In this document: one piece after another, positions 3,221 to 16,561 of the stretch
How positions within the stretch are numbered: the stretch's first letter is position 1
Layout: each line of letters begins with the position of its first letter
Origin: Bacillota bacterium
GTDB lineage: Bacteria; Bacillota; Sulfobacillia; Fermentithermobacillales; Fermentithermobacillaceae
Length of the DNA: 64,000 nt
Direction of reading: 5' to 3'
NCBI GenBank assembly: GCA_050952125.1
Contig: JBMNKK010000001.1
Coordinates: 117,972 to 181,971 of the forward strand
Program-made: the position numbers and the translations under genes
The notes under the pieces: model-generated
Seen by the model: the letters and a program-made list of their open reading frames with translations, nothing else
Database searches by the model: none
What the model was told of the DNA's origin: nothing

Positions 3221-3423
3221 ATCCGTCTTGCACTTCCCATACAACACACATTTGCCTCCCACAGCCCACCCCGGAGTCTCTCAATTGCGCCATACTCAGT
3301 AGATTCTGTGATTAGTTGCACTGCACGAAAGGAAAAAGAGGGATCTCACAGTTTTCGTAGAACCCACAGAAGGTTGTGATATGTGGGATACAACATGCAT
3401 GTTCTCGGAAGGAGGCCCCTACA

Positions 3424-4605
3424 ATGCTGCCGGAAAACGTCAAGACAACACTCCGGGAGGAACTGGAAAACCTTAGGCCTGATTTTGTCGCGATGGCTAA
3501 GGAGATGTGGGACAACCCCGAACACGCGCTCCGCGAGTTCAAGGCTGCCAATCTCATCTGCGACACTCTGGCCAAGGCCGGCTTCAAAGTCGAAAAGCCG
3601 GTCGGCGGGCTTGAGACAGCCTTTATCGCCTCGCACGGCGACGAGGACTCTCCCCGGGTCGCCCTGTTGGCGGAGTACGATGCCACACCCGGTTTCGGAC
3701 ACGCTTGCGGCCATAACCTCATCGCCTCTACCGCGGTCGCTGCGGCTAGAGCGCTCGCCAAGATGGGACACCCCGGACAACTGCTCGTTGTAGGATGCCC
3801 GGGAGAGGAAGGCGGCGGAGGCAAGATATTCCTCACAGAGAGCGGCTGCTTCGACGGAATTGACGCAGCCATATACCTCCACCCCTTCTATCTGACCAGG
3901 ATTGGCGGCCGTACTGCTGCGACGATAAACGTGGAACTTAAGTTCACGGGGCGCCCGGCTCATGCCGGAAGGGCGCCTCACACAGGCATCAACGCTCTAG
4001 CTGCGCTTACGGGCACATTCACGCTGCTAGGCCTTCTTAACCAGCAGCTCCCCCCTGACATCCGCTACAACTGGGTAGTGAGCGAAGGTGGGCGAGGCAC
4101 AGGAATAGTACCGGATATCGCTGCAGCCAAAGTAGGTCTCAGAGGGTCATCACACAGACAGGTAGAGTCGCTCTTCAAACACCTTGAAAACTGCGCCAAG
4201 GGAGCATCCATCGCGACCGGCGCGGAGCTCGAGATTAAGAAGGGACTTTCCTATATGCCGCGGCTCACAAACCCCGTCATCGCCAAGGTGATGGAGGATT
4301 ACCTCAAGGAAGCCGGTTTCGAGTGCGATCCCATGCCCGAGCAGGAGTTCGGTAGCACGGACGTGGGTCACGTCAGCATGCGCGTCCCTACGGTTGAAGG
4401 TTACGTCCAGATCTGCGATCGCGACATCCCCAACCACACCAAAGGCTTTGAGGAGGCCGCCAACTCCGAGAGAGGGTTTGAGGCCATGCTCAAAGGCGCG
4501 TGGGCTCTCGCCTGCACGGCGCTGACACTCTTGACCGACGCTTCGCTGGTAGAAGGTGCGTGGGAGAAACAGCGCGAGGGGGTGAAAGCGCGAGAATCCG
4601 AGTGA
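3424..4605 (+). CDS. M20D-family amidohydrolase (N-acyl-amino-acid / hippurate hydrolase-like), M20-1
   Basis: Contains the GHACGHN metal-binding motif typical of M20D amidohydrolases. Start refined to the ATG at 3424, preceded by GGAAGGAGG. The ORF track extends it to 3376. Confidence 0.8.
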   Translation: MLPENVKTTLREELENLRPDFVAMAKEMWDNPEHALREFKAANLICDTLAKAGFKVEKPVGGLETAFIASHGDEDSPRVALLAEYDATPGFGHACGHNLIASTAVAAARALAKMGHPGQLLVVGCPGEEGGGGKIFLTESGCFDGIDAAIYLHPFYLTRIGGRTAATINVELKFTGRPAHAGRAPHTGINALAALTGTFTLLGLLNQQLPPDIRYNWVVSEGGRGTGIVPDIAAAKVGLRGSSHRQVESLFKHLENCAKGASIATGAELEIKKGLSYMPRLTNPVIAKVMEDYLKEAGFECDPMPEQEFGSTDVGHVSMRVPTVEGYVQICDRDIPNHTKGFEEAANSERGFEAMLKGAWALACTALTLLTDASLVEGAWEKQREGVKARESE

Positions 4606-4646
4606 TCCTTAAGAGTTCTTAGGCTGGACAACAAGGAGGGAAAACG

Positions 4647-5405
4647 GTGACTAAGGGTGTTGCTTCACAGTTCGTGTTTCTGGTTCTGTTCGCACTAGCG
4701 ATCCTGTACTACCTGAACGAAGCCAAGAAGGGAAGGAAGATGTGGCTTCGCAAAATCCCTGCTCTTGACGCCGTTGAGGAAGCTATCGGCAGGGCGGCGG
4801 AAATGGGTAAGCCGGTTCTCTACACACCGGGTCTTGACGCCGTCGAGTTTCCGGAGACCCTGGCAGGACTATCGTTCCTCCCGTACGTGGCTAAGCTGAC
4901 GGCTCGCTACAACGTGCGGTTGATCGAGGCTCAGAGAGACCAGGTCGTTTATTCCATTGCAGAAGAAAGCATCCGGCAGACTTACGCTTCAGAAGGAAAG
5001 ATCGATCAGTTCAACCCCACCGACGTAAGGGTCTTCCCGGATAGATACGGATACATATCCGGAATGATCGGCATCATCGACCAAGAGGAAGTAGCCGTAA
5101 ACCTCATGGTGGGGCTCTTCCGTGCTGAAGCCCTCATCTTCGCAGAGGCAGGCAACAGGGCTGGCGCTCTGCAGATCGCGGCGTCAGCCGACCAGCAGAT
5201 CCCCTTCTTCGTGGCCGTTTGCGACTACACCATGATCGGTGAAGAGCTTTATGCGGCAAGCGCCTACGTAAGCGATGACGAGCGGCAGAAGGGAATCATC
5301 CTCGCTCAGGACCTCGGCAAATGGCTCATCTCAGGGATCATCCTGATCGGCGCGGTCCTCGAAACATGCGGGGTCGATAGCTTCACTAACCTCATGAAGA
5401 TGTAG
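4647..5405 (+). CDS. Uncharacterised bitopic membrane protein A1 (paralog of 13687..14460)
   Basis: N- and C-terminal TM helices flank a roughly 200 aa soluble domain. Shares QIPFFVAVCDY and KIPALDAVEEAIGRA motifs with A2. GTG start, RBS AAGGAGGG. Confidence 0.75.
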   Translation: MTKGVASQFVFLVLFALAILYYLNEAKKGRKMWLRKIPALDAVEEAIGRAAEMGKPVLYTPGLDAVEFPETLAGLSFLPYVAKLTARYNVRLIEAQRDQVVYSIAEESIRQTYASEGKIDQFNPTDVRVFPDRYGYISGMIGIIDQEEVAVNLMVGLFRAEALIFAEAGNRAGALQIAASADQQIPFFVAVCDYTMIGEELYAASAYVSDDERQKGIILAQDLGKWLISGIILIGAVLETCGVDSFTNLMKM

Positions 5406-5424
5406 GCGAAAGGAGGAGTCGACG

Positions 5425-6042
5425 TTGAAAACACAAGGCCCAGTAGCAGTAACTTTCGTCTCAGGGCTTATCATGCTGATTAGTTTCTACTTCGGCATTC
5501 TAGGCCAATGGGAGAGCGCGCTTTATTCCTGGTCGGTAATCGTCGCGGGATTTGCAGCCCTCCTCGGTATCGCCAACCTCACGAAGTTGCACGTTACCAG
5601 GATTCAGCGGCGCAAAGAGTCATTCCTGAGCTACACGCTCCTAGTCGTCATGTGGGGAATCATGATTTATGGGTTCATCAATACTCAGAACGCTCCCCTC
5701 TACACTGACCTGTTCGAGGCACTCTACACGCCCGTCGGCACAACAACCATGTCGCTTCTGGCGTTCTTCATCTTTTCAGCCGCGTACCGAGCCTTCAGGC
5801 CCAGATCCCTAGAAGCCACGATAATGCTCATCTGTAGCTTCGTGACTATTCTCGGCAGGGCCCCCGCGGGCGCTCTTATCTGGAAAGGGTTCCCTGTTGT
5901 CACTGAGTGGCTGGTATCGGTACCCGCCAACGCGGGCTCAAGGGGCATCATGCTGGCCGCGGCCCTGGGAGGCGTCTCAATGTCTCTTAGGGTGCTCTTG
6001 GGCATAGAACGCAGACACTTCGGCGGAGGTTCCGCCAGCTAG
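5425..6042 (+). CDS. Uncharacterised polytopic membrane protein B1 (paralog of 14478..15095)
   Basis: 205 aa with about 6 TM segments. Conserved C-terminal RGIMLAAALGGVSMSLRVLLG matches RGIMIGSAIGAVSVSLRVILG in B2. TTG start, RBS AGGAGG. Confidence 0.7.
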   Translation: MKTQGPVAVTFVSGLIMLISFYFGILGQWESALYSWSVIVAGFAALLGIANLTKLHVTRIQRRKESFLSYTLLVVMWGIMIYGFINTQNAPLYTDLFEALYTPVGTTTMSLLAFFIFSAAYRAFRPRSLEATIMLICSFVTILGRAPAGALIWKGFPVVTEWLVSVPANAGSRGIMLAAALGGVSMSLRVLLGIERRHFGGGSAS

Positions 6043-6061
6043 GTTAAGGAGGGAGACCGCA

Positions 6062-6889
6062 GTGAAAAAAGGGAGCAACATTGACAGGATCGTGATGTAC
6101 CTGCTCCTGTTCGTCGTGATGGCGGTACCGCTTATAAAGCCCATGGGGATCCCCCTTGAGATAAGCCCGGAAACCCAGGCCGCCTACGACTTCATCGAGT
6201 CAATACCTGAAGGCTCGACGGTTTGGATCGACTTTGCCTACCGGCCTGCTACAGCGCCTGAAAGCCTGTCGCAGTCGTATGCCGTCTGCCATCAGCTATT
6301 CAAAAAGAACTTCAAGGTAATCTTCTTTTACTGCATACCTGAAGCGAGCCCCTACGTTGTTGAGGTAACGGAGAAACTCTCCAAGGAGTACAACAAGGAG
6401 TACGGCGTAGACTACGTCAACTTGGGATACAAGCCCAACCTTGACTCCGCCCTAAACGGCATGGCGAGAAACTTCGCCGAGATTTTCCCCACCGATGTGG
6501 ATGGCACGCCAACATCGAGCCTGCCCATTACCAAGAACATCAAGGGCGTAGATGACATAGCCATGTTCTTTGTGGTCCACACCGGCTCTCCGGGAGTAGA
6601 CAGCTACTTCCAGCAAATCGAGGGGCAGTTCAAGAAGCCTATTGTTGCTTCAATGACGGCCATCAACGGCCCGACTCTGTATCCCCGTTTCGAAGCCGGT
6701 CAGCTGAAGGGCATGATCGTCGGCCTTAGAGGCTCTGCCGAGTACGAGCTCTTGGTCAAGGAACCTGGCAGCGCCATCTCCGGAATGGACGCGCAGTCGC
6801 TTGGACACCTGCTCATCGCGGCATCCATCGTAATCGGAACCATTCAGTTCCTAGTCAAGAAGAGCAAGGGAGGTGAAGCGGATGCCTAA
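6062..6889 (+). CDS. Uncharacterised bitopic membrane protein C1 (paralog of 15088..15936)
   Basis: N-terminal TM, soluble domain, C-terminal TM. SSLPITKNIKG / SSLPIMKGING conserved with C2. GTG start, RBS AAGGAGGGAG. Confidence 0.7.
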   Translation: MKKGSNIDRIVMYLLLFVVMAVPLIKPMGIPLEISPETQAAYDFIESIPEGSTVWIDFAYRPATAPESLSQSYAVCHQLFKKNFKVIFFYCIPEASPYVVEVTEKLSKEYNKEYGVDYVNLGYKPNLDSALNGMARNFAEIFPTDVDGTPTSSLPITKNIKGVDDIAMFFVVHTGSPGVDSYFQQIEGQFKKPIVASMTAINGPTLYPRFEAGQLKGMIVGLRGSAEYELLVKEPGSAISGMDAQSLGHLLIAASIVIGTIQFLVKKSKGGEADA

Positions 6890-7487
6890 GGGACTTATCC
6901 TGGCGTCCGGCGTGTTCCTCACTCTGGCGGTGTGGAGCTTCCTATGGAAGATCAACCCCGTATACCGGTTTGCAGAGCACGTGTTTGTAGGCTTTGGCGC
7001 CGCGCACTTTGCCGTAGTGGTTTACCACGGAACCATCAAGCCTAACCTGTTGGCTCCGCTTAAGGAAGGGAACCTGCTCCTTATCATCCCGGGCATTCTA
7101 GGGCTTCTATACCTTATGAGGCTCTCTCCGAAAACTGCCTGGCTCAGCCGGTACCCTATGGCCCTTAACATGGGCGTCGCTGCAGGCGTCGGCATCAGGA
7201 GCGTTCTCCAGGGAACCTTGTTCCCGCAGATGCTGTCCATGTTCCAGCCCATGACCGACATAAACCAGGTCATCACAGTGGTGGGCGTCCTCTCCACCAT
7301 CTTCTACTTCTTCTTTGGATTCGAGGCCAAAGGCCCCGCAAAGGGAGTAAAGCATGTAGGACGCATAGTCATGATGATCTTCTTCGGAGCCATCTTCGGA
7401 AACACAGTCATGTCAAGGTTGTCTTACCTTCTTGGCAGGCTGCAGTTCATCTTTGGCGACGTCCTTCACTGGATACCCGGAACCTAG
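6873..7487 (+). CDS. Uncharacterised polytopic membrane protein D1 (paralog of 15938..16561)
   Basis: 204 aa with multiple TM helices. C-terminal LGRLQFIFGD matches IGRLQFLFGE in D2. Overlaps C1 by 17 nt, consistent with translational coupling. Confidence 0.7.
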   Translation: MKRMPKGLILASGVFLTLAVWSFLWKINPVYRFAEHVFVGFGAAHFAVVVYHGTIKPNLLAPLKEGNLLLIIPGILGLLYLMRLSPKTAWLSRYPMALNMGVAAGVGIRSVLQGTLFPQMLSMFQPMTDINQVITVVGVLSTIFYFFFGFEAKGPAKGVKHVGRIVMMIFFGAIFGNTVMSRLSYLLGRLQFIFGDVLHWIPGT

Positions 7488-7522: not shown

Positions 7523-8257
7523 ATGAGAATCGATACCGAGAAATGCCGAGGCTGCGGTCTGTGCGTGCCGTTCTGTCCCGCCAACGCCATTACTTTGGCC
7601 GACAGAAAGGCTCGTATTGACGAGGATAAGTGCCTCGAGTGCGGCACGTGCCTGAGGAAAGGGGTTGTCCGCTGCCCCACGGGAGCTTTCTACGAGCCCC
7701 CGGGAGTCTATGAGCGTCCCCGCTCTATCAGGAAGTTCCTCAGCGATCCCGCCACGAACCACAAGGAGACCGGTATCCCCGGGCGCGGGACAGAGGAAGT
7801 TAAGACCAACGACGTGACCGGCCGTGTGAAGCGCGGCTTCGTCGGCATCGGGCTCGAGGTCGGGCGCCCTGCTCTGGGAGCCGATCTCACCGATATAGAG
7901 AAACTCACCATGAGCCTGGCCAAGTCGGGGCTCAACATCCACTGGGAGGAGGACAATCCGGTCACCCACCTGTTCAAGGATCCTGCGACCGGTACCCTGC
8001 TGGATGAATGCAAGGATCAGCGGGTTGTCTCGGCGATCATCGAGTTCGCTTTGCCCGTGAACGAACTCAGGCCTTGTCTGGACACGATCAAGGCAGCATC
8101 CAAAGAGATAAGCACAGTGTTCTCACTGTTTGTGATATCGAGGATGGACGAAGACGGGAACACCCCCCTTGTCTCCGAGCTGGAGGCATGGGGATACGAC
8201 GTGCGCCCCAATTCCAAGGTAAACTTGGGATTGGGCAGGCCACTGAGGGAGGAGTGA
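7523..8257 (+). CDS. 2x[4Fe-4S] ferredoxin-domain protein with a C-terminal domain of unknown function, Fd1 (paralog of 11360..12118)
   Basis: CRGCGLCVPFCP and CLECGTCLRKGVVRCP cluster motifs. Conserved TGIPGRGTEEVKTNDVTGR is shared with Fd2. Confidence 0.75.
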   Translation: MRIDTEKCRGCGLCVPFCPANAITLADRKARIDEDKCLECGTCLRKGVVRCPTGAFYEPPGVYERPRSIRKFLSDPATNHKETGIPGRGTEEVKTNDVTGRVKRGFVGIGLEVGRPALGADLTDIEKLTMSLAKSGLNIHWEEDNPVTHLFKDPATGTLLDECKDQRVVSAIIEFALPVNELRPCLDTIKAASKEISTVFSLFVISRMDEDGNTPLVSELEAWGYDVRPNSKVNLGLGRPLREE

Positions 8258-8264
8258 CGACGCC

Positions 8265-8918
8265 TTGACACACTCACTGCATAGGCGCGGGGCGCCGGAA
8301 ACACTGGAAAACGATTACGTGCTCTTGGTGACGCCCGCCGTTGGGATAAACCACGTAGGGTCTAAGGAGAAACTCCAGAAGATATTGGACGTGATCTGGG
8401 AAATAGGTCCGACCAACATCGGCTCCTACGAGGTAGGCACCATTTTCACAGGTTCAACCCTTGAAGAGATTAAGACAAGTCTCAGCGATAAACCGAGAGT
8501 ACGCTGCGCATTTGACAGCTGCGAGAAGATCACCGAGGTGGTCAGGAGAATCAAAGAGATGGATCTCGGCCTCTCGGTTACCGTGAGCGGCCTCACCGAC
8601 AAGGTGCAGGAAATGAGCAAGCGCCTGGGAATCGAGCCCAACTCGGTGAACCTCTCGCTGGGCATCATGGGAAGAACCGACCTTCTTCCTCCCGAATGGG
8701 TACTTGAGATCACCACAATGTGCGGGCACGGCATGATATCCGCATCTCTTGTGGAAAAGATGGTATCCGATCTCAAGAAGGGCAGAATCACACTGGACAA
8801 AGCGGCTGAAACACTGGCTAGGCCCTGTGTCTGTGGGATATTCAACGTAGCCAGAGCGAAAAAACTCCTCGCCGACCGCCTTGCCTGTGATGAGTCCTGC
8901 AAGGCGGAAGGAGAGTGA
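8265..8918 (+). CDS. Conserved Cys-rich protein of unknown function E1 (paralog of 10698..11315)
   Basis: MTHSLHR N-terminus. ITTMCGHGMIS and CVCGIFN motifs are conserved with E2. TTG start, RBS GAGGGAGGAG. Confidence 0.7.
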   Translation: MTHSLHRRGAPETLENDYVLLVTPAVGINHVGSKEKLQKILDVIWEIGPTNIGSYEVGTIFTGSTLEEIKTSLSDKPRVRCAFDSCEKITEVVRRIKEMDLGLSVTVSGLTDKVQEMSKRLGIEPNSVNLSLGIMGRTDLLPPEWVLEITTMCGHGMISASLVEKMVSDLKKGRITLDKAAETLARPCVCGIFNVARAKKLLADRLACDESCKAEGE

Positions 8919-8922
8919 CGCG

Positions 8923-10545
8923 GTGAATCGTTCAATGACTACAGTGGGCGGCCTATCAACGGCCGCCCACCCTTTGGCAGCAATGGCGGGGGCATGGGTT
9001 CAGGCCCGCGGGGGCAACGCGGTTGACGCGGCTGTAGCTACGGCCTTCGCGCTCCCGGTCGTCGAACCGATGATGTCGGGCGTCCTCGGGCGCGGCTGCT
9101 ACGTGTACGCACCGGTTGACGGCGACCCGGTTACCGTCGACTTCTACTCGGCAGCGCCCGGAAAAGCCACTCCCGATATGTTTAGGTGGATAGAATCTCC
9201 CACCCAGGGAGGCTACCGCTTCTACACTGAAGGCGACCTCAATACGACCGGCCATCTATCGGTTACGGCAAGCGGGTTCTCTCACGCTATGGCCGATCTC
9301 CTGGCCAAGCACGGGACAATGACGTTGGAAGATGTCCTTGCTCCGGCCGCAGACTTTGCCGAAAGAGGGTTTAAGGTATCTCCCAGGCTCCACAGGAACC
9401 TGGTACGCCTGAAGGCGAGACTGGACCAGCACCCCAATGAAGCTATGTCAAAGGTCTGGTTCCCGGAAGGTCAAGTCCCCCCTATCGGCGCAACCGTGAA
9501 ACAGCCTGACCTTGCCCGTACGCTCAGGCTTATCGGGCGCGAGGGGCCGGACGCGGTCTCTACAGGCGAGGTCGCTCAGGCAATCCTGGCCGATGTGAAA
9601 GGACACGGAGGCATTCTGTCGTCAGAAGACATTGAAGATCCGTGGAGATGGGTGGTCAAGAAGAGAACTCCTGTGGCAGGGATCTACAGGGACTGCGAAG
9701 TGCTTGGAGCGGCACCTTCCACTTCGGGAGGCACTACCGTTCTGGAGATCCTCAACATGCTGGAAACTCAGGAGCTCTGCCCCAAGAACAGGATGAGCGA
9801 GGCGCACCTAAGGGCTCTTGTCGGTGCCATGGTAAGAGCGTTTGCCGACAGGGCGTCATACTCGTGGGATCCGGCTTTTGACGAGATCCCTGTGGATACT
9901 CTCATATCAAAAGAGTACGCCGCGAGGAAGATGAAGGAGCCTGTGGCCCCGTTCAAAGCCGCCGAGGATCGAGAATCTCACACCTCTCACCACTCGCATG
10001 TTGATGCTGCCGGCAATATGGTCGCCGTAACTCAGAGTCTCGGTGACGCCTTTGGAGCGGGAGCTATGGTGCCGGAATACGGACTAACGTACGACAACGC
10101 CATGAAGCTCTTTGACCCGAGGCCGGGACGGATGAACTCTATCACAGCCAACAAGAAGCCGCTCGGGAGCATGTCGCCGACCATCCTGAAGAAAGACGGC
10201 CGGCCGTTCATGTCCTTGGGCAGCCCTTCGGGCACGAGGATCATCAATGCTGTAGTTCAGGTCATATCCAACGTCGTAGACTTCGGTGATGACCTGCAGA
10301 AGGCGATCGACATGCCGCGAATCCACTGGTCGGGCGACGAGTTGGAGCTCGAAAACAGGATGCCCGTGGGCGTCCTGGAGACCCTCAAGAGCTTCGGCTT
10401 CTCTCCCATTGTTAAGGCAGCATGGGATGAGTGGTTTGGCGGCGTCAACGCTGTGATGGACCTTGGCCGCGGCATAAGAGCGGCGGGATCGGATCCGCGC
10501 CGAGAGGCCGGCGCTGCGGGATGGCATGTAATGACCCACTCGTGA
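8923..10545 (+). CDS. ggt: Gamma-glutamyltranspeptidase (Ntn hydrolase)
   Basis: 540 aa. GGT-like sequence including a T-S-H-H-S-H-V-D region resembling the autoprocessing site TTHFSVVD. Start refined to the GTG at 8923, 6 nt after GGAAGGAGAG. Confidence 0.8.
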   Translation: MNRSMTTVGGLSTAAHPLAAMAGAWVQARGGNAVDAAVATAFALPVVEPMMSGVLGRGCYVYAPVDGDPVTVDFYSAAPGKATPDMFRWIESPTQGGYRFYTEGDLNTTGHLSVTASGFSHAMADLLAKHGTMTLEDVLAPAADFAERGFKVSPRLHRNLVRLKARLDQHPNEAMSKVWFPEGQVPPIGATVKQPDLARTLRLIGREGPDAVSTGEVAQAILADVKGHGGILSSEDIEDPWRWVVKKRTPVAGIYRDCEVLGAAPSTSGGTTVLEILNMLETQELCPKNRMSEAHLRALVGAMVRAFADRASYSWDPAFDEIPVDTLISKEYAARKMKEPVAPFKAAEDRESHTSHHSHVDAAGNMVAVTQSLGDAFGAGAMVPEYGLTYDNAMKLFDPRPGRMNSITANKKPLGSMSPTILKKDGRPFMSLGSPSGTRIINAVVQVISNVVDFGDDLQKAIDMPRIHWSGDELELENRMPVGVLETLKSFGFSPIVKAAWDEWFGGVNAVMDLGRGIRAAGSDPRREAGAAGWHVMTHS

Positions 10546-10697: not shown

Positions 10698-11315
10698 TTA
10701 TTCCTTTGCCATTTTGTTCAGGATCTTCTCTGCCCGTGCAGGGTTAAAGATGCCGCAGGGACAGAGCCGACCCAACCTCTTGGCTGCCTTTTCAGCGGTT
10801 GTACGTCCCTTCTTCACGTCTTCTGCAAGCTTCTCCACTATCGCCGCGGAGATCATGTGGTGACCGCACATCGTCGTGATAGCCAACACGTCCTCTGACG
10901 GGAGCAGCTCTTTCTTGCCCCATACCCCAAGCGAGAAGTTGATGGTATGCGGAACCACTCCCGCCTCGGCGCACGCCGGTATCACCTTGTCTAGAAGCCC
11001 GCTGATGATGACCGAGATCCCGAGGTCGGCCTCCTTCACCATCTTGAGAAACTTAACGACCTGCTCCTGTGAGGTAAAGGCTCCCCGGAGGCGCGATTTG
11101 TCTGAAATGTTCTTCCTAATCTCTTCTGGAGAGACCTCCAGGATATTGCCTGATTTCACATCTCCCCAGTTTATCGAGTCGCATGCCTCGGCGGCATCCA
11201 TGAACACTAGAGCCTTGTCTTTGATGTTCTTGTCGTTGACGCCTTGAGCCTGGTACATCAACCAAGCGTAATCTTCTTCCAAGAAGGGGCCGCTTCTATG
11301 TAGCGTGTGAGTCAT
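10698..11315 (-). CDS. Conserved Cys-rich protein of unknown function E2
   Basis: Homolog of E1, with MTHTLHRSG, ITTMCGHHMIS and CPCGIFN. ATG start with GGAGGG RBS. Confidence 0.7.
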   Translation of the reverse strand: MTHTLHRSGPFLEEDYAWLMYQAQGVNDKNIKDKALVFMDAAEACDSINWGDVKSGNILEVSPEEIRKNISDKSRLRGAFTSQEQVVKFLKMVKEADLGISVIISGLLDKVIPACAEAGVVPHTINFSLGVWGKKELLPSEDVLAITTMCGHHMISAAIVEKLAEDVKKGRTTAEKAAKRLGRLCPCGIFNPARAEKILNKMAKE

Positions 11316-11359
11316 CTCGAACCCTCCGTTTTCTTCATCTCTTGCTGAAATGAGCCAGT

Positions 11360-12118
11360 CTAGGGAACCAGAGGTCGCCCCAGCCCCACGTTGACCTTTC
11401 CTCTAATGGGAGTAACGCCGAATTTGTCCAGAACCTTGAGGCTCGGGTGATAGCCGTTTGCATCGGTTCTCAAGACTAGGCCCACCGAAAACACGGTGTC
11501 GACCTTATCCTCTACATCGCGAAGGGCCTGAAGCACGTCACCAAGCTTGGAGAGTTCGCACTTGCCCTCAACGATAATTGACAGAAGGTAGTGGTCTTTT
11601 ATCGAGGGATCCATGACGCCGGTCTCAATATCCAAAACCTGACCCAAGGGACTGTGCTCGGCGCTCTCCAGTTTCAGGCCAGCCTTCACCACAGCTTTGG
11701 CAACGGTCTCAACATCGGCCATCCGCACTCCCACGCCGGGCCTTCCCATGTCGATGGCGATGCCGGCTTCATCACGTCCAAACCTGCCGGTTACATCGTT
11801 GGTCTTTGCCTCTTCAGTGCCTCGTCCGGGCACTCCCGTTTCGGCAGTAGTCTCCGTCGGGTCGCTGAGGATATGGCGAAACATATCGTTGAAGGTCTCA
11901 AGAGGACCGGGAGACATGGCTTTCGTCGGGCATACGTCGTTACGCACGCAAACGTAGCAGTCGGTGCACTTATGCGGATCGACTAGAGCCAGCCCATCCT
12001 CTACCTCTATGGCTCCGACCGTACAGTACGGGACACAATTCCCGCACCCCACGCACTTTTCAGGGTCAATTATGATCAAAGGGTATCCCTCCAGCCGATA
12101 TTGGATTTTGTATACCAC
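11360..12118 (-). CDS. 2x[4Fe-4S] ferredoxin-domain protein Fd2
   Basis: CVGCGNCVPYCTVGA and CTDCYVCVRNDVCP cluster motifs. TGVPGRGTEEAKTNDVTGR matches Fd1. Confidence 0.75.
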   Translation of the reverse strand: MVYKIQYRLEGYPLIIIDPEKCVGCGNCVPYCTVGAIEVEDGLALVDPHKCTDCYVCVRNDVCPTKAMSPGPLETFNDMFRHILSDPTETTAETGVPGRGTEEAKTNDVTGRFGRDEAGIAIDMGRPGVGVRMADVETVAKAVVKAGLKLESAEHSPLGQVLDIETGVMDPSIKDHYLLSIIVEGKCELSKLGDVLQALRDVEDKVDTVFSVGLVLRTDANGYHPSLKVLDKFGVTPIRGKVNVGLGRPLVP

Positions 12119-12329: not shown

Positions 12330-13673
12330 GTGGAGTCAAAGCTCGCGAAGTACATCCGCGACAACCGCCAGAAGTTTATCGATGAGCTTAGGGAGTTTCT
12401 CCAGCAGCCAACGATAGCCGCGGAAGGGATCGGCGGCGAAGAAGGCGCCAGGCTGGTCGAGCAATACCTCGCGAAACGGAACGTCAAGACAAGGCGCCTG
12501 CCTAACCCCGGAAATCCGGTTATCTACGGTGAGGTTGAGGGCGAATCAGACAAGACGGTGCTGCTCTACTGTCATTACGATGTACAGCCGATTGGAAGCG
12601 AGAGCGACTGGCAGTATCCCCCGTTTGCGGCTACGCTGGTCGGTGACCGGTTGTGGGGACGCGGGAGCGGCGACCACAAAGGATGCCTTCTATCCCGCAT
12701 ACAGGCTTTGGAAGCAGTCATGGCAGTCTACGGAAAACCCGCGCCAACGGTCAAGTTCCTCCTTGAGGCCGACGAAGAGACCGGGAGCCCGTATCTGGCC
12801 AAAGTGATGGAGGAAAACCGCAATCTACTGAAGGCAGACGGTAGTCTGTACTCCGGCAGGTTTAAGGACCCGGAAGGCCGGCCGATGATAGCCGCGGGAG
12901 GTTCCGGCTCATGTAGGATCCGCCTGACCGCCAGCGGCGCCAACGTTAACCTGCACCCCATGAACGCCACCCTTGTTTCTAACCCAATCCTGAGGCTCAT
13001 CCGGGCCGTATCGCTCATAGTCGACGACAGCCAAAGGATAACGGTACCGGGAGTTAGAGAAGCCGTTCTGGAACCGACGAAGGAAGACCGGGAGGTACTT
13101 GAGAACTTCCCGCTTGACGAGGAAGGAATCAAGAAGTCTCTCGGAATCGACAGCTTCATCGCCAACTTGACGGGGCGCGAAGCCGTCATGCACCAATTCT
13201 TCGAGCCTCGTGTCATGGTAGCCGGTATCGAGACAAGTGCGGGAGAGCATCTAATCCCTTCGGTGCCCGCCAGCGCGAGTATTACCTTGGGCTTCAGCTT
13301 ATTTGTCGATCAAGAACCGGACACGGTCTTCGAACAGGTTCGCTCACACTTGATATCCCACGGATTCGGCGATCTCCGCATCGAATTGCTGGGTGGAAAG
13401 CCGCCGGCAAAGACTCCGATAGCAGATCCGCTTGTTCAAAGCCTAATCTCCGCTGCGAAGGCGACCTACGGACAGGATCCTGTAGTCTATCCCACGACCC
13501 TTGGCGCCGGCCCGTGGAGCCTCTTCATCAAGCAGAACGGGATACCCATGGCTTCAGATCCCGGCGTCGCTCACTCGGGATCCAATTACCACGCTCCGAA
13601 CGAAAATATCTATCTGAGCGACTACTTCCAGGGGCTGGAATGCATGGCAAGATTCCTGGTCTCGTACAAGTAA
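12330..13673 (+). CDS. M20A-family dipeptidase/metallo-hydrolase (M20-2)
   Basis: 447 aa. YCHYDVQP motif typical of M20 dipeptidases (PepV/ArgE/DapE superfamily). GTG start, RBS GAGGAGG. Confidence 0.75.
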   Translation: MESKLAKYIRDNRQKFIDELREFLQQPTIAAEGIGGEEGARLVEQYLAKRNVKTRRLPNPGNPVIYGEVEGESDKTVLLYCHYDVQPIGSESDWQYPPFAATLVGDRLWGRGSGDHKGCLLSRIQALEAVMAVYGKPAPTVKFLLEADEETGSPYLAKVMEENRNLLKADGSLYSGRFKDPEGRPMIAAGGSGSCRIRLTASGANVNLHPMNATLVSNPILRLIRAVSLIVDDSQRITVPGVREAVLEPTKEDREVLENFPLDEEGIKKSLGIDSFIANLTGREAVMHQFFEPRVMVAGIETSAGEHLIPSVPASASITLGFSLFVDQEPDTVFEQVRSHLISHGFGDLRIELLGGKPPAKTPIADPLVQSLISAAKATYGQDPVVYPTTLGAGPWSLFIKQNGIPMASDPGVAHSGSNYHAPNENIYLSDYFQGLECMARFLVSYK

Positions 13674-13686
13674 GGAGGTGTGCTAA

Positions 13687-14460
13687 GTGGTTGAAGGACG
13701 CGTAGCAAGCTTCATACTGCTGGTCATGACAGCAGTAGCCGTCTATCTCTCAGTGCAGAGAGCCCGGTCAGGTATACTCCCGGAACTTCGTAAAATCGCC
13801 GCGTTTGACGCTATAGAAGAGGCAGTCGGTAGAGCGACTGAGCTAGGTCGCCCGGTGCTCTTCACTCCGGGCAAGGGCGACATCACGGACATCGGCGGCC
13901 CTCAGGTCCTTGCAGGTTTGGACATGCTATCGTATGTTTCCCAGTTGACCGCTAGGTACAAGGCAGGACTCGTAGCGACCATTCCCGTGCCGACCGTTCA
14001 GCCTATCGCGGAAGACGTCATCCACACATCCTACATAAGAGAGGGGCAGTCAGACGCCTATAGCCCGGATATGGTCCGCTTTGTCTCCCCCGAGCAGATG
14101 GCGTACGCCACCGGTACAGCGGGCGTTGTCATGCGCGAACAGGTCGCAGCGACCTTCCTGGTAGGACCCTTCTACGGCGAGTCGCTGATCATTGCCGAAT
14201 CTGCGGCGCAGCTGGGAGCCATCCAGATAGCGGGAACCGCCAGGATGGTCCAGATCCCCTTCTTCGTCGGCGCTTGCGACTACGCCCTCATCGGCGAAGA
14301 GATGTACGCAACCAGCGCCTATCTGACAGGGGATCCTGTACAATTGGGCATTATCCATGGCCAGGATACCGTACGCGCCATCACGATCCTTCTCATCGTT
14401 ATCGGATCCCTTCTCACGACGGTTGGAGTAGATAGCCTGACAACACTCATCAGAATGTAA
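13687..14460 (+). CDS. Uncharacterised bitopic membrane protein A2
   Basis: Paralog of A1 (QIPFFVGACDY; KIAAFDAIEEAVGRA). Confidence 0.75.
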   Translation: MVEGRVASFILLVMTAVAVYLSVQRARSGILPELRKIAAFDAIEEAVGRATELGRPVLFTPGKGDITDIGGPQVLAGLDMLSYVSQLTARYKAGLVATIPVPTVQPIAEDVIHTSYIREGQSDAYSPDMVRFVSPEQMAYATGTAGVVMREQVAATFLVGPFYGESLIIAESAAQLGAIQIAGTARMVQIPFFVGACDYALIGEEMYATSAYLTGDPVQLGIIHGQDTVRAITILLIVIGSLLTTVGVDSLTTLIRM

Positions 14461-14477
14461 AAAGGTGGTGAAATGCC

Positions 14478-15095
14478 GTGCGAAGAGAAGTTCCGTTATT
14501 GGTTGGCGGATTGACAGGCTTCCTGTTTGTGGTCGAGTACTTCTTCAATGTTCCCTTCCTGAGTGAAACAGCCAAGGCAGTTCAAAGCTGGGTTGTCGTC
14601 ATATCAGCGTTCATGATGGGGCTGGGAGCTATCAACCTCCTCCGCATCCACTCCAGAAACCTGGTCAACCCCAGAAGGACAAGTAAGCTGAACTCAGTAC
14701 TCATGCTGGGCTCTCTCCTATGCATGTCTTTCACAGGTATCGTCCTTGGCCAAGACAGCCCTTTCTTCAAGACACTCTTCAGCAGCGTGTATGAACCACT
14801 AGGAGCAACAGCATTCGCGACGCTCATGTTCTATGCCGCCACTGTCGTCTTCAGATCGTTCAGGTTCAGAAATTTGGCCACCACACTCTTCATGGCTTCG
14901 GCCGCTCTCGTCATTTTCGGCCGCTCTCCGCTTGGAGAAGCATTGGTGCCGGTCGCTAAGACGCTGGCCGACTGGATCTTCAAGATCCCGAACCTCGCCG
15001 GACAGAGAGGTATCATGATAGGTTCGGCTATCGGCGCCGTCTCTGTCAGCCTCCGGGTGATCCTAGGAGTAGACCGCAAATATCTCGGTGAATAG
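14478..15095 (+). CDS. Uncharacterised polytopic membrane protein B2
   Basis: Paralog of B1. Confidence 0.7.
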   Translation: MRREVPLLVGGLTGFLFVVEYFFNVPFLSETAKAVQSWVVVISAFMMGLGAINLLRIHSRNLVNPRRTSKLNSVLMLGSLLCMSFTGIVLGQDSPFFKTLFSSVYEPLGATAFATLMFYAATVVFRSFRFRNLATTLFMASAALVIFGRSPLGEALVPVAKTLADWIFKIPNLAGQRGIMIGSAIGAVSVSLRVILGVDRKYLGE

Positions 15096-15936
15096 TGAGG
15101 TGAGAATCGTGGATTGGCTTAGGAATCTCGATAGACGGATCATCTATGCGATAGTGTTTCTTTCACTGCTATTGCCTTTAGCCTGGCCTATCGGTTCACC
15201 GGTCAGCGTTAGCACGTGGACCAGAGCGGTTTACGAAGCCATCGAAGGTCTCTCCCCTGGCGACACGATTCTGTTCGCCATGGATATCAGCGTTACGTCA
15301 TCAGCTGACGAGCTTCCTCAGGCAACAACGGTGCTCCGTCACCTGATGTCTCGTGACATCCGTGTTATTTTCGTAAACTTCGTCCCCACCGGCGCGCCGT
15401 ACACGGCTGACGCTATAGCTCAGTATGAGAAAGAAGGCAAGGTGTACGGTGAAGACTTCGCTCACCTGGGATACGTTGCAGGGCTCGAGTCAGGCATGGT
15501 TGCCTTCTTTGCCGATATGGCCGGCACGACTCCGACAGACGCACGGGGAAACAGGACATCTTCCCTGCCCATCATGAAGGGCATCAACAGCCTCCACGAT
15601 GTGGAACTCGTAGTCGCCAACGTGGGAGGGACTCCCGGAATCGCGGAATGGGTCAGGCAAGCCCACGTACCCTACAACAGCAAGCGGCTCTTGGTAAACG
15701 CGCTTGGCCCGCACTTTGGCCTCATTGAGCCCTACATCCAGTCCAAACAGGTCGTGGGTGTCCTTGCCGGTTCCAGGGGCGCGGCCGAGTATGAATCCCT
15801 CACGAAGATGCCCGGGCTGGGCGCCGCCATGATGGACTCACAGTCAATCGGGCTCATGTCCATTCTGGCCATCATGATCTTGGGCAACATCGTGCATTTC
15901 GTAGATAAACGGAAAGCAAAGGGAGGGACAAAGTGA
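15088..15936 (+). CDS. Uncharacterised bitopic membrane protein C2
   Basis: Paralog of C1. Overlaps B2 by 8 nt. Confidence 0.7.
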   Translation: MNSEVRIVDWLRNLDRRIIYAIVFLSLLLPLAWPIGSPVSVSTWTRAVYEAIEGLSPGDTILFAMDISVTSSADELPQATTVLRHLMSRDIRVIFVNFVPTGAPYTADAIAQYEKEGKVYGEDFAHLGYVAGLESGMVAFFADMAGTTPTDARGNRTSSLPIMKGINSLHDVELVVANVGGTPGIAEWVRQAHVPYNSKRLLVNALGPHFGLIEPYIQSKQVVGVLAGSRGAAEYESLTKMPGLGAAMMDSQSIGLMSILAIMILGNIVHFVDKRKAKGGTK

Positions 15937-15937
15937 C

Positions 15938-16561
15938 ATGGCTACTGACGTCAGCACTTGGATTGCCGCAATCGCTAGCCTCTGCATGCTGTCGCTCCTA
16001 CTAGGAGACAACCCGTTCTTCAGCGCAGCTGAACATATATACGTCGGGCTGGGTGCCGGTTACTACCTGGTCCTGGGGTTCCAGAATATCAAGAACATGG
16101 CGTGGGGACCGCTGGTCAGAGGTGAAGGCATCATCTACGTTGTTCCGCTGATCCTGGGACTCCTTGTCTACACTCGATACTTCAAATCGGTCAGCTACCT
16201 CAGCCGCATATCGGCTTCGATCGTGGTATGCATGGGAGCAGCCATCGGTCTCAGAGGCTCCATCGTCAGCGATTTCGCCAAGCAGATTGAATCGACTATC
16301 TCACTGCCGCTGAACTCCTTTGACAACTTAGTGGTTGTCGTCGGAACGGCCGCGACCCTCGGGTACTTCTACTTCACCAAACTGAAGTCGCCCGGCCTCG
16401 CAAAGGTTCAGAAAGCGGTAAGCGTGACAGGTCAATCGGTGATGATGGTAGCGCTGGGAGCCTTGTTTGCGAACAGCATGTTCACTTTTGCGGCGAGGCT
16501 GATAGGAAGGCTTCAGTTCCTCTTCGGAGAGTGGATTCACTTCGTCAAGCTTCCTTCTTAA
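15938..16561 (+). CDS. Uncharacterised polytopic membrane protein D2
   Basis: Paralog of D1. Confidence 0.7.
   Translation: MATDVSTWIAAIASLCMLSLLLGDNPFFSAAEHIYVGLGAGYYLVLGFQNIKNMAWGPLVRGEGIIYVVPLILGLLVYTRYFKSVSYLSRISASIVVCMGAAIGLRGSIVSDFAKQIESTISLPLNSFDNLVVVVGTAATLGYFYFTKLKSPGLAKVQKAVSVTGQSVMMVALGALFANSMFTFAARLIGRLQFLFGEWIHFVKLPS

What the first reader, a model, noticed from the sequence alone, without database searches (positions are those of the whole stretch)
7523..8918. Conserved pair of a ferredoxin-domain protein and a CGHG-motif Cys-rich protein, always in the same order (also at 10698-12118)
In both copies the 2x[4Fe-4S] protein (with a roughly 170 aa C-terminal domain bearing G(I/V)PGRGTEE(V/A)KTNDVTGR) is immediately followed by the roughly 210 aa E protein. 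E has the invariant blocks MTH(S/T)LHR, ITTMCGH(G/H)MIS and C(V/P)CGIFN. The conserved cysteines and histidines suggest a metal or Fe-S binding partner. This could be a dedicated electron-transfer or maturation pair serving the A-D membrane module. I do not recognise E as a named family.
Basis: partly seen in the sequence, partly recalled or inferred. Interest (0 to 1): 0.7.

Follow-up and report, generated by a model that had tools for sequence, protein, structure and literature searches.

The report
Conserved two-gene iron-sulfur protein pair
Two adjacent genes, a ferredoxin-domain protein and an unnamed partner with an invariant three-cysteine, one-histidine site, form a widespread and uncharacterised pair in anaerobic bacteria that usually sits in nutrient-uptake and breakdown operons, not specifically with the membrane module next to it here.

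Summary

The pair is a real unit. In 76 genome loci from at least five phyla, E is directly preceded by a full-length Fd on the same strand, usually -4 to +20 nt apart. The exceptions are one reversed pair and one solo E.

E and the Fd C-terminal domain match no Pfam, NCBIfam or PDB entry. C153, G154, H155, C188, C190 and N194 are invariant in all 133 E representatives.

The link to the A-D module is not general. A-D is absent from all 76 Fd-E genome loci. None of 80 metagenomic A-D (DUF6754) loci carries Fd or E.

Fd-E instead sits with TctABC, TRAP or CitMHS transporters (67 of 95 pairs). It also sits with NAD-dependent hydroxyacid dehydrogenases and with tungsten AOR or 2-oxoacid:ferredoxin oxidoreductase.

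One natural fusion joins E to an AorA-type polyferredoxin.

Best reading: an obligate cytoplasmic Fe-S heterocomplex that moves low-potential electrons in anaerobic catabolic operons. Its chemistry is unknown. A redox-sensing transporter regulator is the main rival.

The parts
7523..8257 (+). Fd1 (244 aa). An N-terminal clostridial-type 2x[4Fe-4S] domain (residues 1-58), a conserved linker loop, and a C-terminal alpha/beta (ACT-like) domain with no Pfam family.
7778..7825 (+). Invariant loop PGRGTEEVKTNDVTGR of Fd1 (residues 86-101).
   Evidence: Invariant or near-invariant in 33 homologues. pLDDT is low (49-63) in the monomer model, so it probably orders only in the complex or with a ligand (inference).
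8265..8918 (+). E1 (217 aa). An N-terminal ferredoxin-like alpha/beta domain (about residues 10-120) and a C-terminal helical domain carrying the Cys3His site.
8715..8729 (+). TMCGH motif of E1 (C153, G154, H155).
   Evidence: C, G and H are each 133/133 invariant in 50%-identity representatives.
8826..8846 (+). CVCGIFN motif of E1 (C188, C190, N194).
   Evidence: C188, C190 and N194 are 133/133 invariant. The spacing is C-x-H-x32-C-x-C.
8265..8285 (+). N-terminal motif M-T-H-S-L-H-R of E1.
   Evidence: 130/133 family members start exactly here. T/S2 130/133, H3 121/133, H6 125/133, R7 130/133.
10698..11315 (-). E2 (205 aa), paralogue of E1.
   Evidence: 48% identity to E1. Motifs at 11295-11315, 10860-10874 and 10743-10763.
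11360..12118 (-). Fd2 (252 aa), paralogue of Fd1, directly upstream of E2.
   Evidence: 41% identity to Fd1. Pfam Fer4 families. Conserved loop at 11783-11830.
3376..7487 (+). Context of pair 1: M20 amidohydrolase (3376-4605) and membrane cassette A-D (4647-5405 DUF6754, 5425-6042, 6062-6889, 6873-7487), in the same operon as Fd1-E1.
   Evidence: Pfam and NCBIfam. Short gaps and no terminator-like site above background. A and C have a TM segment at each end; B and D have 5-6 TM segments.
8881..10545 (+). Gamma-glutamyltransferase gene following E1. The listed start overlaps the E1 3' end.
   Evidence: Pfam G_glu_transpept 1.9e-112 and TIGR00066 above cutoff.
12330..16561 (+). Context of pair 2: second M20 peptidase (12330-13673) and second A-D cassette (13687-16561), transcribed divergently from Fd2-E2.

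Best explanation
Fd and E are the two subunits of one obligate, soluble, cytoplasmic iron-sulfur protein of strict anaerobes.

Shown:
- Fd contributes two [4Fe-4S] clusters on a clostridial ferredoxin domain plus an ACT-like alpha/beta domain.
- E contributes a second, possibly paralogous, alpha/beta domain plus a helical domain with an invariant C-x-H...C-x-C (Cys3His) site.

Inferred mechanism:
- The Cys3His site binds a third Fe-S cluster or a metal.
- Low-potential electrons pass between cellular ferredoxin or an AorA-type polyferredoxin, the two Fd clusters and the E site.
- The conserved polar residues then use these electrons on, or take them from, a small anionic molecule. These residues are the Fd loop PGRGTEEVKTNDVTGR and the E residues H3, H6, R7, D17, H126 and S131.

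Shown: the module has been recruited repeatedly into catabolic operons for imported carboxylates and peptides, alongside NAD-dependent hydroxyacid dehydrogenases, tungsten AOR and 2-oxoacid:ferredoxin oxidoreductases.

Inferred: it acts as a redox partner or auxiliary oxidoreductase for these operons, not as a carbon-skeleton enzyme.

In this window it has been recruited twice, into M20/GGT peptidase operons that use the A-D membrane cassette in the position where other genomes have TctABC.
For: - Complex: about 95 Fd-then-E pairs in 76 loci from Bacillota, Thermodesulfobacteriota, Synergistota, Chloroflexota and Sumerlaeota, with gaps mostly -4 to +20 nt. The RBS for E1 lies inside the end of Fd1.
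- Redox wiring: all eight ferredoxin Cys are invariant. The Cys3His residues are 133/133 invariant.
- Fusion: P0188 is E plus a Fer4_11 polyferredoxin, still preceded by its own Fd gene. Its C-terminal part is 39% identical to the small ferredoxin that lies between E and AFOR in Gelria.
- Gelria sp. Kuro-4 has three pairs. Each sits with HIBADH, an AOR gene set and a TTT, TRAP or TAXI transporter.
- AorA is the four-cluster electron-transfer subunit of bacterial AOR (PMC6365974).
- Context: NAD-dependent dehydrogenase or AOR/OFOR genes lie within four genes in 59 of 95 pairs.
- High conservation across very different operon types (42-65% identity) argues for one substrate-independent molecular function.
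- Both proteins are soluble, with no TM segment or signal peptide.
Against: - No cofactor, complex or activity has been measured. The Cys3His site could be structural zinc.
- No flavin, nucleotide-binding or known catalytic domain is present, so the terminal reaction is unidentified.
- The commonest neighbour is a transporter (immediately adjacent in 47 of 95 pairs).
- In this window and in L083 the operons contain only hydrolases and membrane proteins, with no redox enzyme. A pure electron-transfer role has no obvious client there.
- AOR lies within 6 kb in only 10 of 76 loci.
- Only one fusion lineage is solid. Two apparent Fd-E fusions turned out to be frameshifts.
Confidence: 0.45

Rival explanations
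1. Fd-E is a redox- and ligand-sensing regulator that binds and gates the co-encoded secondary transporter (TctABC, TRAP, CitMHS, or A-D here). It would work as GlnK does for AmtB or SbtB for SbtA. The ACT/PII-like domains would sense a metabolite and the Fe-S clusters would sense the state of the ferredoxin pool.
For: - A transporter component is the immediate neighbour in 47 of 95 pairs and lies within four genes in 67 of 95.
- Fd-E lies inside tct operons, between tctC and tctB, in L029, L040, L050 and L058.
- Some operons hold little besides Fd-E, TctCBA, a regulator and an aldolase (L032, L039, L057).
- Both subunits have ACT/PII-like folds. SbtB and other PII-like proteins are among the weak structural hits.
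- The window operons contain no redox enzyme.
Against: - Many single tct operons carry two distinct Fd-E pairs, each next to a dehydrogenase (L010-L012, L022, L079).
- 28 of 95 pairs have no recognised transporter within four genes and sit with AOR or OFOR instead.
- The E-AorA fusion points to electron transfer.
- A chain of two or three clusters is typical of electron conduits, not of sensors (established knowledge).
Confidence: 0.2
2. E is a non-redox Fe-S (de)hydratase or lyase acting on hydroxy-carboxylates. A [4Fe-4S] cluster would be held by the three invariant Cys, with a free iron for the substrate and His155 as the base. Fd would only keep the cluster reduced or assembled.
For: - There are exactly three invariant Cys plus one His.
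- The context is hydroxy-acid and tricarboxylate catabolism: TTT, Ldh_2, DHDPS, RraA-like aldolase, PdxA and IlvD/Edd.
- Three-Cys [4Fe-4S] clusters are typical of aconitase-type and serine-dehydratase-type enzymes (established knowledge).
Against: - There is no similarity to any known Fe-S dehydratase.
- Known enzymes of this kind do not need a dedicated two-cluster ferredoxin subunit.
- Sugar-acid loci already encode IlvD/Edd dehydratases.
- The peptidase-only context of this window does not fit.
- High sequence conservation across unrelated pathways argues against substrate-specific catalysis.
Confidence: 0.12
3. One reading: Fd-E is an electron-transfer or maturation pair dedicated to the A-D (DUF6754) membrane module.
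For: Both pairs in the window flank A-D cassettes. One related MAG repeats the pattern as A-B-C-D, creatininase, Fd, E (L083).
Against: - 0 of 76 Fd-E genome loci contain A, B, C or D.
- 0 of 80 A-D metagenome loci contain Fd or E, although the A-B-C-D order is conserved there.
- A-D cassettes in L081 and L082 also lack the pair.
Confidence: 0.03
4. Fd-E is a metal or cofactor maturation factor, for example for tungsten or molybdenum cofactor enzymes or for Fe-S delivery. It would use the His-rich N-terminus and the Cys/His site as a metal-handling site.
For: - The strictly conserved extreme N-terminus M-(T/S)-H-x-L-H-R and the CGH and CxC motifs resemble metallochaperone metal sites. This is a resemblance recalled from memory, for example the HypA MHE motif.
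- The pair neighbours AOR and MoaD-like genes in some loci.
Against: - Most loci have no metalloenzyme client.
- Several paralogous pairs per genome and per operon are unusual for maturases.
- No similarity to any known maturation family.
Confidence: 0.05

Closest known systems
Clostridial 2x[4Fe-4S] ferredoxins and ferredoxin-domain subunits (PreA-, RnfB-, PorD-like)
   Different: Fd carries an extra ~185-residue part with no known family: an invariant loop plus an ACT-like domain. The second cluster motif has unusual spacing, CxxCxxCx7C. Scores against RnfB, PorD and HgcB models are far below their cutoffs.
AorA/AorC electron-transfer subunits of bacterial tungsten aldehyde oxidoreductase (AorABC; PMC6365974)
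   Same: Fd-E is encoded beside AorA-like, AFOR and MoaD-like genes, in operons that mostly lack AorC. E is fused to an AorA-like polyferredoxin in P0188.
   Different: There is no FAD or NAD domain as in AorC. Most Fd-E pairs have no AOR nearby. No sequence homology of E to AorA or AorC was detected: E matches no Pfam family, including the Fer4 and Pyr_redox families that those subunits carry. E was not compared with them directly.
NIL/ferredoxin proteins of the DUF39 homocysteine pathway (MA1822, DvMF_0262; PMC5764234)
   Same: The design is the same: a small ferredoxin-fold, ligand-binding type domain joined to a 2x[4Fe-4S] ferredoxin domain. It works with a separate Cys-bearing partner protein in reductive chemistry on a carboxylate in anaerobes.
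   Different: There is no Pfam NIL hit. The domain order is reversed, the partner is unrelated (DUF39 versus E), and the genomic context is catabolic rather than biosynthetic.
PII/ACT-like transporter regulators (GlnK-AmtB, SbtB-SbtA)
   Same: These are small ferredoxin-fold proteins encoded next to the transporter they act on. There is weak structural resemblance.
   Different: Those regulators are trimeric, have no Fe-S clusters, and carry T-loops and nucleotide sites. No sequence-family match was found here.
BFD-like [2Fe-2S] domain (C-x-C-x31-35-C-x2-C; recalled from memory)
   Same: The E C-terminal site, C-x-H-x32-C-x-C with helices in between, has a similar ligand spacing.
   Different: The second ligand is His, and the last pair is CxC rather than CxxC. 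There is no Pfam Fer2_BFD hit. hhalign against E. coli Bfd was negative, at 0.1% probability.

Membership tests
2x[4Fe-4S] ferredoxin domain (Pfam Fer4 clan), for the Fd N-terminus | Two four-Cys motifs of the CxxCxxCxxxCP type | tested here: met
   C8/11/14/18 is canonical. C37/40/43/51 has a longer last spacer. All eight Cys are invariant in 33 homologues.
2x[4Fe-4S] ferredoxin domain (Pfam Fer4 clan), for the Fd N-terminus | Score above the Pfam gathering threshold, and ferredoxin fold | tested here: met
DUF362 (the name NCBI gives some Fd homologues) | Match to the DUF362 domain model | tested here: not met
   No DUF362 hit for Fd1 or Fd2 at E<=0.1, or for C-domains at E<=10. The name appears only in source annotations.
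RnfB / RsxB | Full-length model score above cutoff (N-terminal anchor plus Fe-S domains) | tested here: not met
   TIGR01944 scores 25-29 bits against a cutoff of 68.7, and only the ferredoxin repeat aligns. No TM segment.
NIL/ferredoxin proteins | Pfam NIL domain (PF09383) adjacent to the ferredoxin domain | tested here: not met
   No NIL hit at E<=10 on C-domains.
BFD-like [2Fe-2S] domain, for the E C-terminus | C-x-C...C-x2-C ligand pattern and a Fer2_BFD profile match | tested here: not met
   The pattern is C-x-H-x32-C-x-C. No Pfam hit in 32 members at E<=10. hhalign was negative.
PII / ACT regulatory domains, for the E N-domain and Fd C-domain | Beta-alpha-beta-beta-alpha-beta fold with a family profile match and ligand-binding motifs | tested here: inconclusive
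AorC-type electron-transfer subunit of AOR | FAD/NAD-binding Pyr_redox_2 domain | tested here: not met
   Fd and E have no such domain. Genuine AorC-like genes (cluster c32) carry it.
Fe-S protein with a Cys3His-ligated cluster, for E | Bound Fe-S cluster with three Cys and one His ligand | not testable with these tools
   Only the invariance of C153, H155, C188 and C190 is shown. Metal analysis and EPR are needed.

The most novel reading that the evidence does not exclude
Fd-E is a ferredoxin-pool-coupled control or energising module for secondary solute uptake systems (TTT, TRAP, CitMHS and the A-D cassette). It would be a cytoplasmic Fe-S heterodimer that docks on the transporter and ties carboxylate or peptide import to the cell's low-potential redox state. 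No such class of transporter partner is known.
Probability: 0.15. Interest if true: 0.85.

Novelty: new variant of a known kind. Interest (0 to 1): 0.6.

Why it matters
- The E family has at least 824 clusters at 50% identity across several anaerobic phyla, including gut Clostridia and cultured Desulfitobacterium, Desulfosarcina and Gelria. The Fd C-terminal domain is equally widespread. Neither has a Pfam family, a solved relative or a name.
- The two always occur together, and E carries an invariant Cys3His site. This defines a new two-subunit Fe-S protein.
- The pair is one of the most regular unexplained components of anaerobic TctABC and TRAP catabolic operons and of some tungsten AOR operons.
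- Working out its function would fill a recurring gap in pathway reconstructions for organic-acid and peptide fermentation.
- It could also reveal either a new type of ferredoxin-dependent reaction or a new mode of transporter control.

Tried and rejected
1. Sequence searches of E against Pfam, NCBIfam and PDB, as a single sequence and as a profile, found nothing. Weak GatB_Yqey and GHMP_C hits (E>=0.004) were treated as noise.
3. The BFD-like [2Fe-2S] idea for the E C-terminus was negative by hhalign with a Bfd sequence recalled from memory. It is kept only as an untested lead.
4. Apparent Fd-E fusion ORFs in L016 and L071 were rejected. They are frameshift read-throughs. The E-then-Fd fusion P0266 is doubtful because of an odd insert.
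5. The Rnf reading of the operon (A-D as RnfD/G/E/A) was rejected. A is DUF6754, B-D have no Rnf hits, and Fd scores far below the RnfB cutoffs.
6. Literature searches for DUF6754, for TctA with 4Fe-4S, and for AOR with TTT gave nothing relevant.
7. A-D as the obligatory partner of the pair was rejected by the co-occurrence counts.
8. Homology between the E N-domain and the Fd C-domain is only weakly suggested (hhalign E 0.0039, probability 8.6%, shared G-I-x-P-(H/R)...V-N-L-(S/G)-L-G). It is not claimed.
Full report
**1. What is in the window**

The region holds two gene sets.

Set 1, all on the + strand:
- M20 amidohydrolase, 3376-4605
- A (Pfam DUF6754), 4647-5405
- B, 5425-6042
- C, 6062-6889
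- D, 6873-7487
- Fd1, 7523-8257
- E1, 8265-8918
- gamma-glutamyltransferase, 8881-10545

Set 2:
- E2, 10698-11315, and Fd2, 11360-12118, on the - strand
- transcribed divergently from a second M20 peptidase, 12330-13673
- followed by a second A-D cassette, 13687-16561

E1/E2 are 48% identical and Fd1/Fd2 are 41% identical.

Gaps inside operon 1 are short. A GGGAGGAG ribosome-binding site for E1 lies within the last codons of Fd1. No promoter- or terminator-like excess separates the genes.

Fd and E have no TM segments. A and C have one TM segment at each end, and B and D have 5-6.

**2. The pair is a real, widespread unit**

E has at least 1473 relatives at 90% clustering, all unnamed or labelled 'hypothetical'. 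It has 824 clusters at 50% identity.

A scan of one genome per species returned 76 loci. They come from Bacillota (Clostridia, Negativicutes, Tissierellia, Peptococcia, Erysipelotrichia, Desulfitobacteriia), Thermodesulfobacteriota, Synergistota, Chloroflexota and Sumerlaeota.

In these loci a full-length Fd homologue directly precedes E on the same strand in about 95 pairs. Gaps are mostly -4 to +20 nt, and loci often hold 2-3 pairs.

The exceptions are:
- one reversed pair (L033)
- one E with no Fd upstream (L024)
- two frameshifted pairs that I first mistook for fusions (L016 and L071)

**3. Anatomy**

Fd:
- An invariant loop P-G-R-G-T-E-E-V-K-T-N-D-V-T-G-R follows. The monomer model gives it low confidence.
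- The protein ends in K-V-N-L-G-L-G-R-P.
- The C-terminal ~185 residues match no Pfam family even at E<=10.

E:
- The AF2 model is confident (pLDDT 91).
- It has an N-terminal ferredoxin-like alpha/beta domain and a C-terminal helical domain.
- No Pfam, NCBIfam or PDB sequence match exists.

Conservation of E across 133 representatives at 50% identity:
- C153, G154, H155, C188, C190 and N194 are invariant in every sequence.
- R7 is conserved in 98%, H6 in 94%, H126 in 94% and H3 in 91%.
- 130 of 133 proteins begin exactly at M-(T/S)-H-x-L-H-R.

The site C-x-H-x32-C-x-C offers three Cys and one His. This fits an Fe-S cluster with a His ligand or a C3H metal site. Which one it is cannot be decided here.

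A weak profile-profile signal links the second half of the E alpha/beta domain to the end of Fd. The shared pattern is G-I-x-P-(H/R)...V-N-L-(S/G)-L-G. It hints that the two alpha/beta domains are distant paralogues forming a pseudo-symmetric heterodimer. This is only a lead.

**4. Genomic company**

I clustered neighbouring ORFs and annotated cluster representatives with Pfam.

| Feature near the 95 pairs | Count |
|---|---|
| TTT (TctA/B/C), TRAP or CitMHS component within four genes | 67 |
| Transporter component immediately adjacent | 47 |
| NAD-dependent hydroxyacid dehydrogenase immediately adjacent (HIBADH, DUF1932-type, Ldh_2, PdxA, SDR) | 34 |
| Such a dehydrogenase within four genes | 51 |
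| AOR or 2-oxoacid:ferredoxin oxidoreductase genes within four genes | 17 |

Recurrent gene arrangements are:
- Fd-E-TctC-TctB-TctA
- TctC-Fd-E-TctB-TctA
- DUF1932-Fd-E-TctB-TctA-TctC-Fd-E-Ldh_2-DHDPS
- AorA-AFOR-MoaD-HIBADH-Fd-E
- OFOR gamma/delta/alpha/beta-Fd-E

Regulators are of the GntR, LysR, IclR and sigma-54 types.

Gelria sp. Kuro-4 has three pairs. Each sits with HIBADH, an AOR gene set and a TTT, TRAP or TAXI transporter.

One solid Rosetta-stone fusion exists. P0188 is E joined to a Fer4_11 polyferredoxin that is 39% identical to the AorA-like protein encoded after E in Gelria. It is still preceded by its own Fd gene, with a 4-nt overlap. In bacterial AOR, AorA is the four-cluster electron-transfer subunit (PMC6365974).

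**5. The A-D module is not the partner**

- None of the 76 Fd-E genome loci contains A, B, C or D.
- A scan with a DUF6754 alignment returned 80 metagenomic loci. The A-B-C-D order is conserved in them, often in two or three tandem copies, and none contains Fd or E.
- Three further look-ups gave the same picture, with one exception. A 67%-identical relative of this organism has A-B-C-D, creatininase, Fd, E, beta-lactamase-like and M20.

So the combination seen here is a lineage-specific recruitment. The A-D cassette occupies the operon position that TctABC holds elsewhere.

**6. Interpretation**

Shown:
- a strictly coupled two-gene unit
- two canonical [4Fe-4S] sites in Fd
- an invariant Cys3His site in E
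- soluble proteins
- a restriction to anaerobes
- recurrent placement in catabolic and uptake operons
- one fusion of E to an AOR-type polyferredoxin

Inferred:
- The two proteins form a heterocomplex in which electrons pass from or to ferredoxin or polyferredoxin, through the Fd clusters, to the E site.
- The invariant loop of Fd and the N-terminal His/Arg motif of E build a binding or active site at the interface.

Identity stays at 42-65% across operons for quite different substrates: sugar acids, tricarboxylates, and peptides or amides. The known enzymes in those operons already account for the carbon steps. I therefore favour a substrate-independent redox role, either electron entry or exit or an auxiliary oxidoreductase (confidence about 0.45).

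The main rival is a redox- and ligand-sensing regulator of the adjacent transporter, in the manner of GlnK-AmtB or SbtB-SbtA (about 0.2). Supporting it:
- a transporter is the commonest neighbour
- this window's operons contain no redox enzyme

Arguing against it:
- single tct operons often carry two distinct pairs
- some pairs sit with AOR or OFOR and no recognised transporter
- the E-AorA fusion points to electron transfer

**7. Comparison with known systems**

The Fd N-terminus is an ordinary member of the 2x[4Fe-4S] ferredoxin domain family. Everything else fails the membership tests applied:
- DUF362, the name NCBI gives some homologues
- RnfB
- NIL/ferredoxin
- BFD-like [2Fe-2S]
- PII/ACT
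- AorC

The nearest analogues in design are the NIL/ferredoxin proteins that work with DUF39 in reductive homocysteine synthesis (PMC5764234). The nearest in context are the AorA/AorC electron-transfer subunits of AOR.

**8. Verdict**

It is wrong on the A-D link.

The pair is a new variant within the known kind 'multi-cluster Fe-S redox modules', built from two domains with no known relatives. Its biochemical function is still open. Interest 0.6.

Noticed in passing
window 4647-7487 and 13687-16561; loci L081-L083, L087-L166: The four-gene membrane cassette A (DUF6754), B, C, D keeps its order in 80 metagenomic loci and in Bacillota and WOR-3 genomes. It is often present as two or three tandem A-B-C-D copies. 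Flanking genes are varied: peptidases and amidases (M20, MlrC, creatininase, M28/M42) in Bacillota, and PatA_N and ExbBD-TonB genes in WOR-3. B, C and D have no Pfam family. It looks like an uncharacterised membrane complex in its own right, possibly a transporter.
   Followed up: partly
window 8637-8663 (E1 residues 125-133): E1 has Asn (PNSVNLSLG) where 94% of the family, including E2, has His126 (PH(S/T)xNxSLG). So the two paralogues in this window differ at a nearly invariant position.
   Followed up: no
window 8881-8918: The listed TTG start of the gamma-glutamyltransferase ORF overlaps the last 38 nt of E1. The true start is probably a downstream codon. The protein shows no obvious signal peptide, which is unusual for a GGT.
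   Followed up: no
L086 937-2172 (P0188); P0184: A natural fusion of E with an AorA/HybA-like Fer4_11 polyferredoxin, preceded by its own Fd gene with a 4-nt overlap. P0184 shows the same junction but degenerates afterwards.
   Followed up: yes
L016 7561-9255; L071 9065-10570: Apparent Fd-E fusion ORFs are frameshift read-throughs. The Fd match stops near residue 200-211, nonsense sequence follows, and E then starts at MTH... These are probably assembly errors or pseudogenes.
   Followed up: yes
L033 3309-4662; L024 635-1288: Two rare exceptions to the rule. L033 has one pair in reversed order (E then Fd, overlapping). L024 has one E with no detectable Fd in the 634 nt upstream, on a short contig.
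   Followed up: partly
L061, L065, L067, L071 (for example L067 6249-7781): In Thermodesulfobacteriota loci, a conserved ~505-aa protein lies between the AorA-like and AorC-like (FAD) genes next to Fd-E. Its only family hit is a weak match to the Prismane N-terminus. It may be an unrecognised catalytic subunit that uses AOR-type electron-transfer partners.
   Followed up: no
L029, L040, L050, L058: In Desulfitobacterium and Gracilibacter type loci, Fd-E is inserted between tctC and tctB-tctA. The operon also encodes PdxA, HIBADH, xylose-isomerase-like TIM-barrel and IlvD/Edd genes. This gene set looks like acid-sugar catabolism, a reading that rests on my own knowledge of those enzyme families rather than on a test here.
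   Followed up: partly
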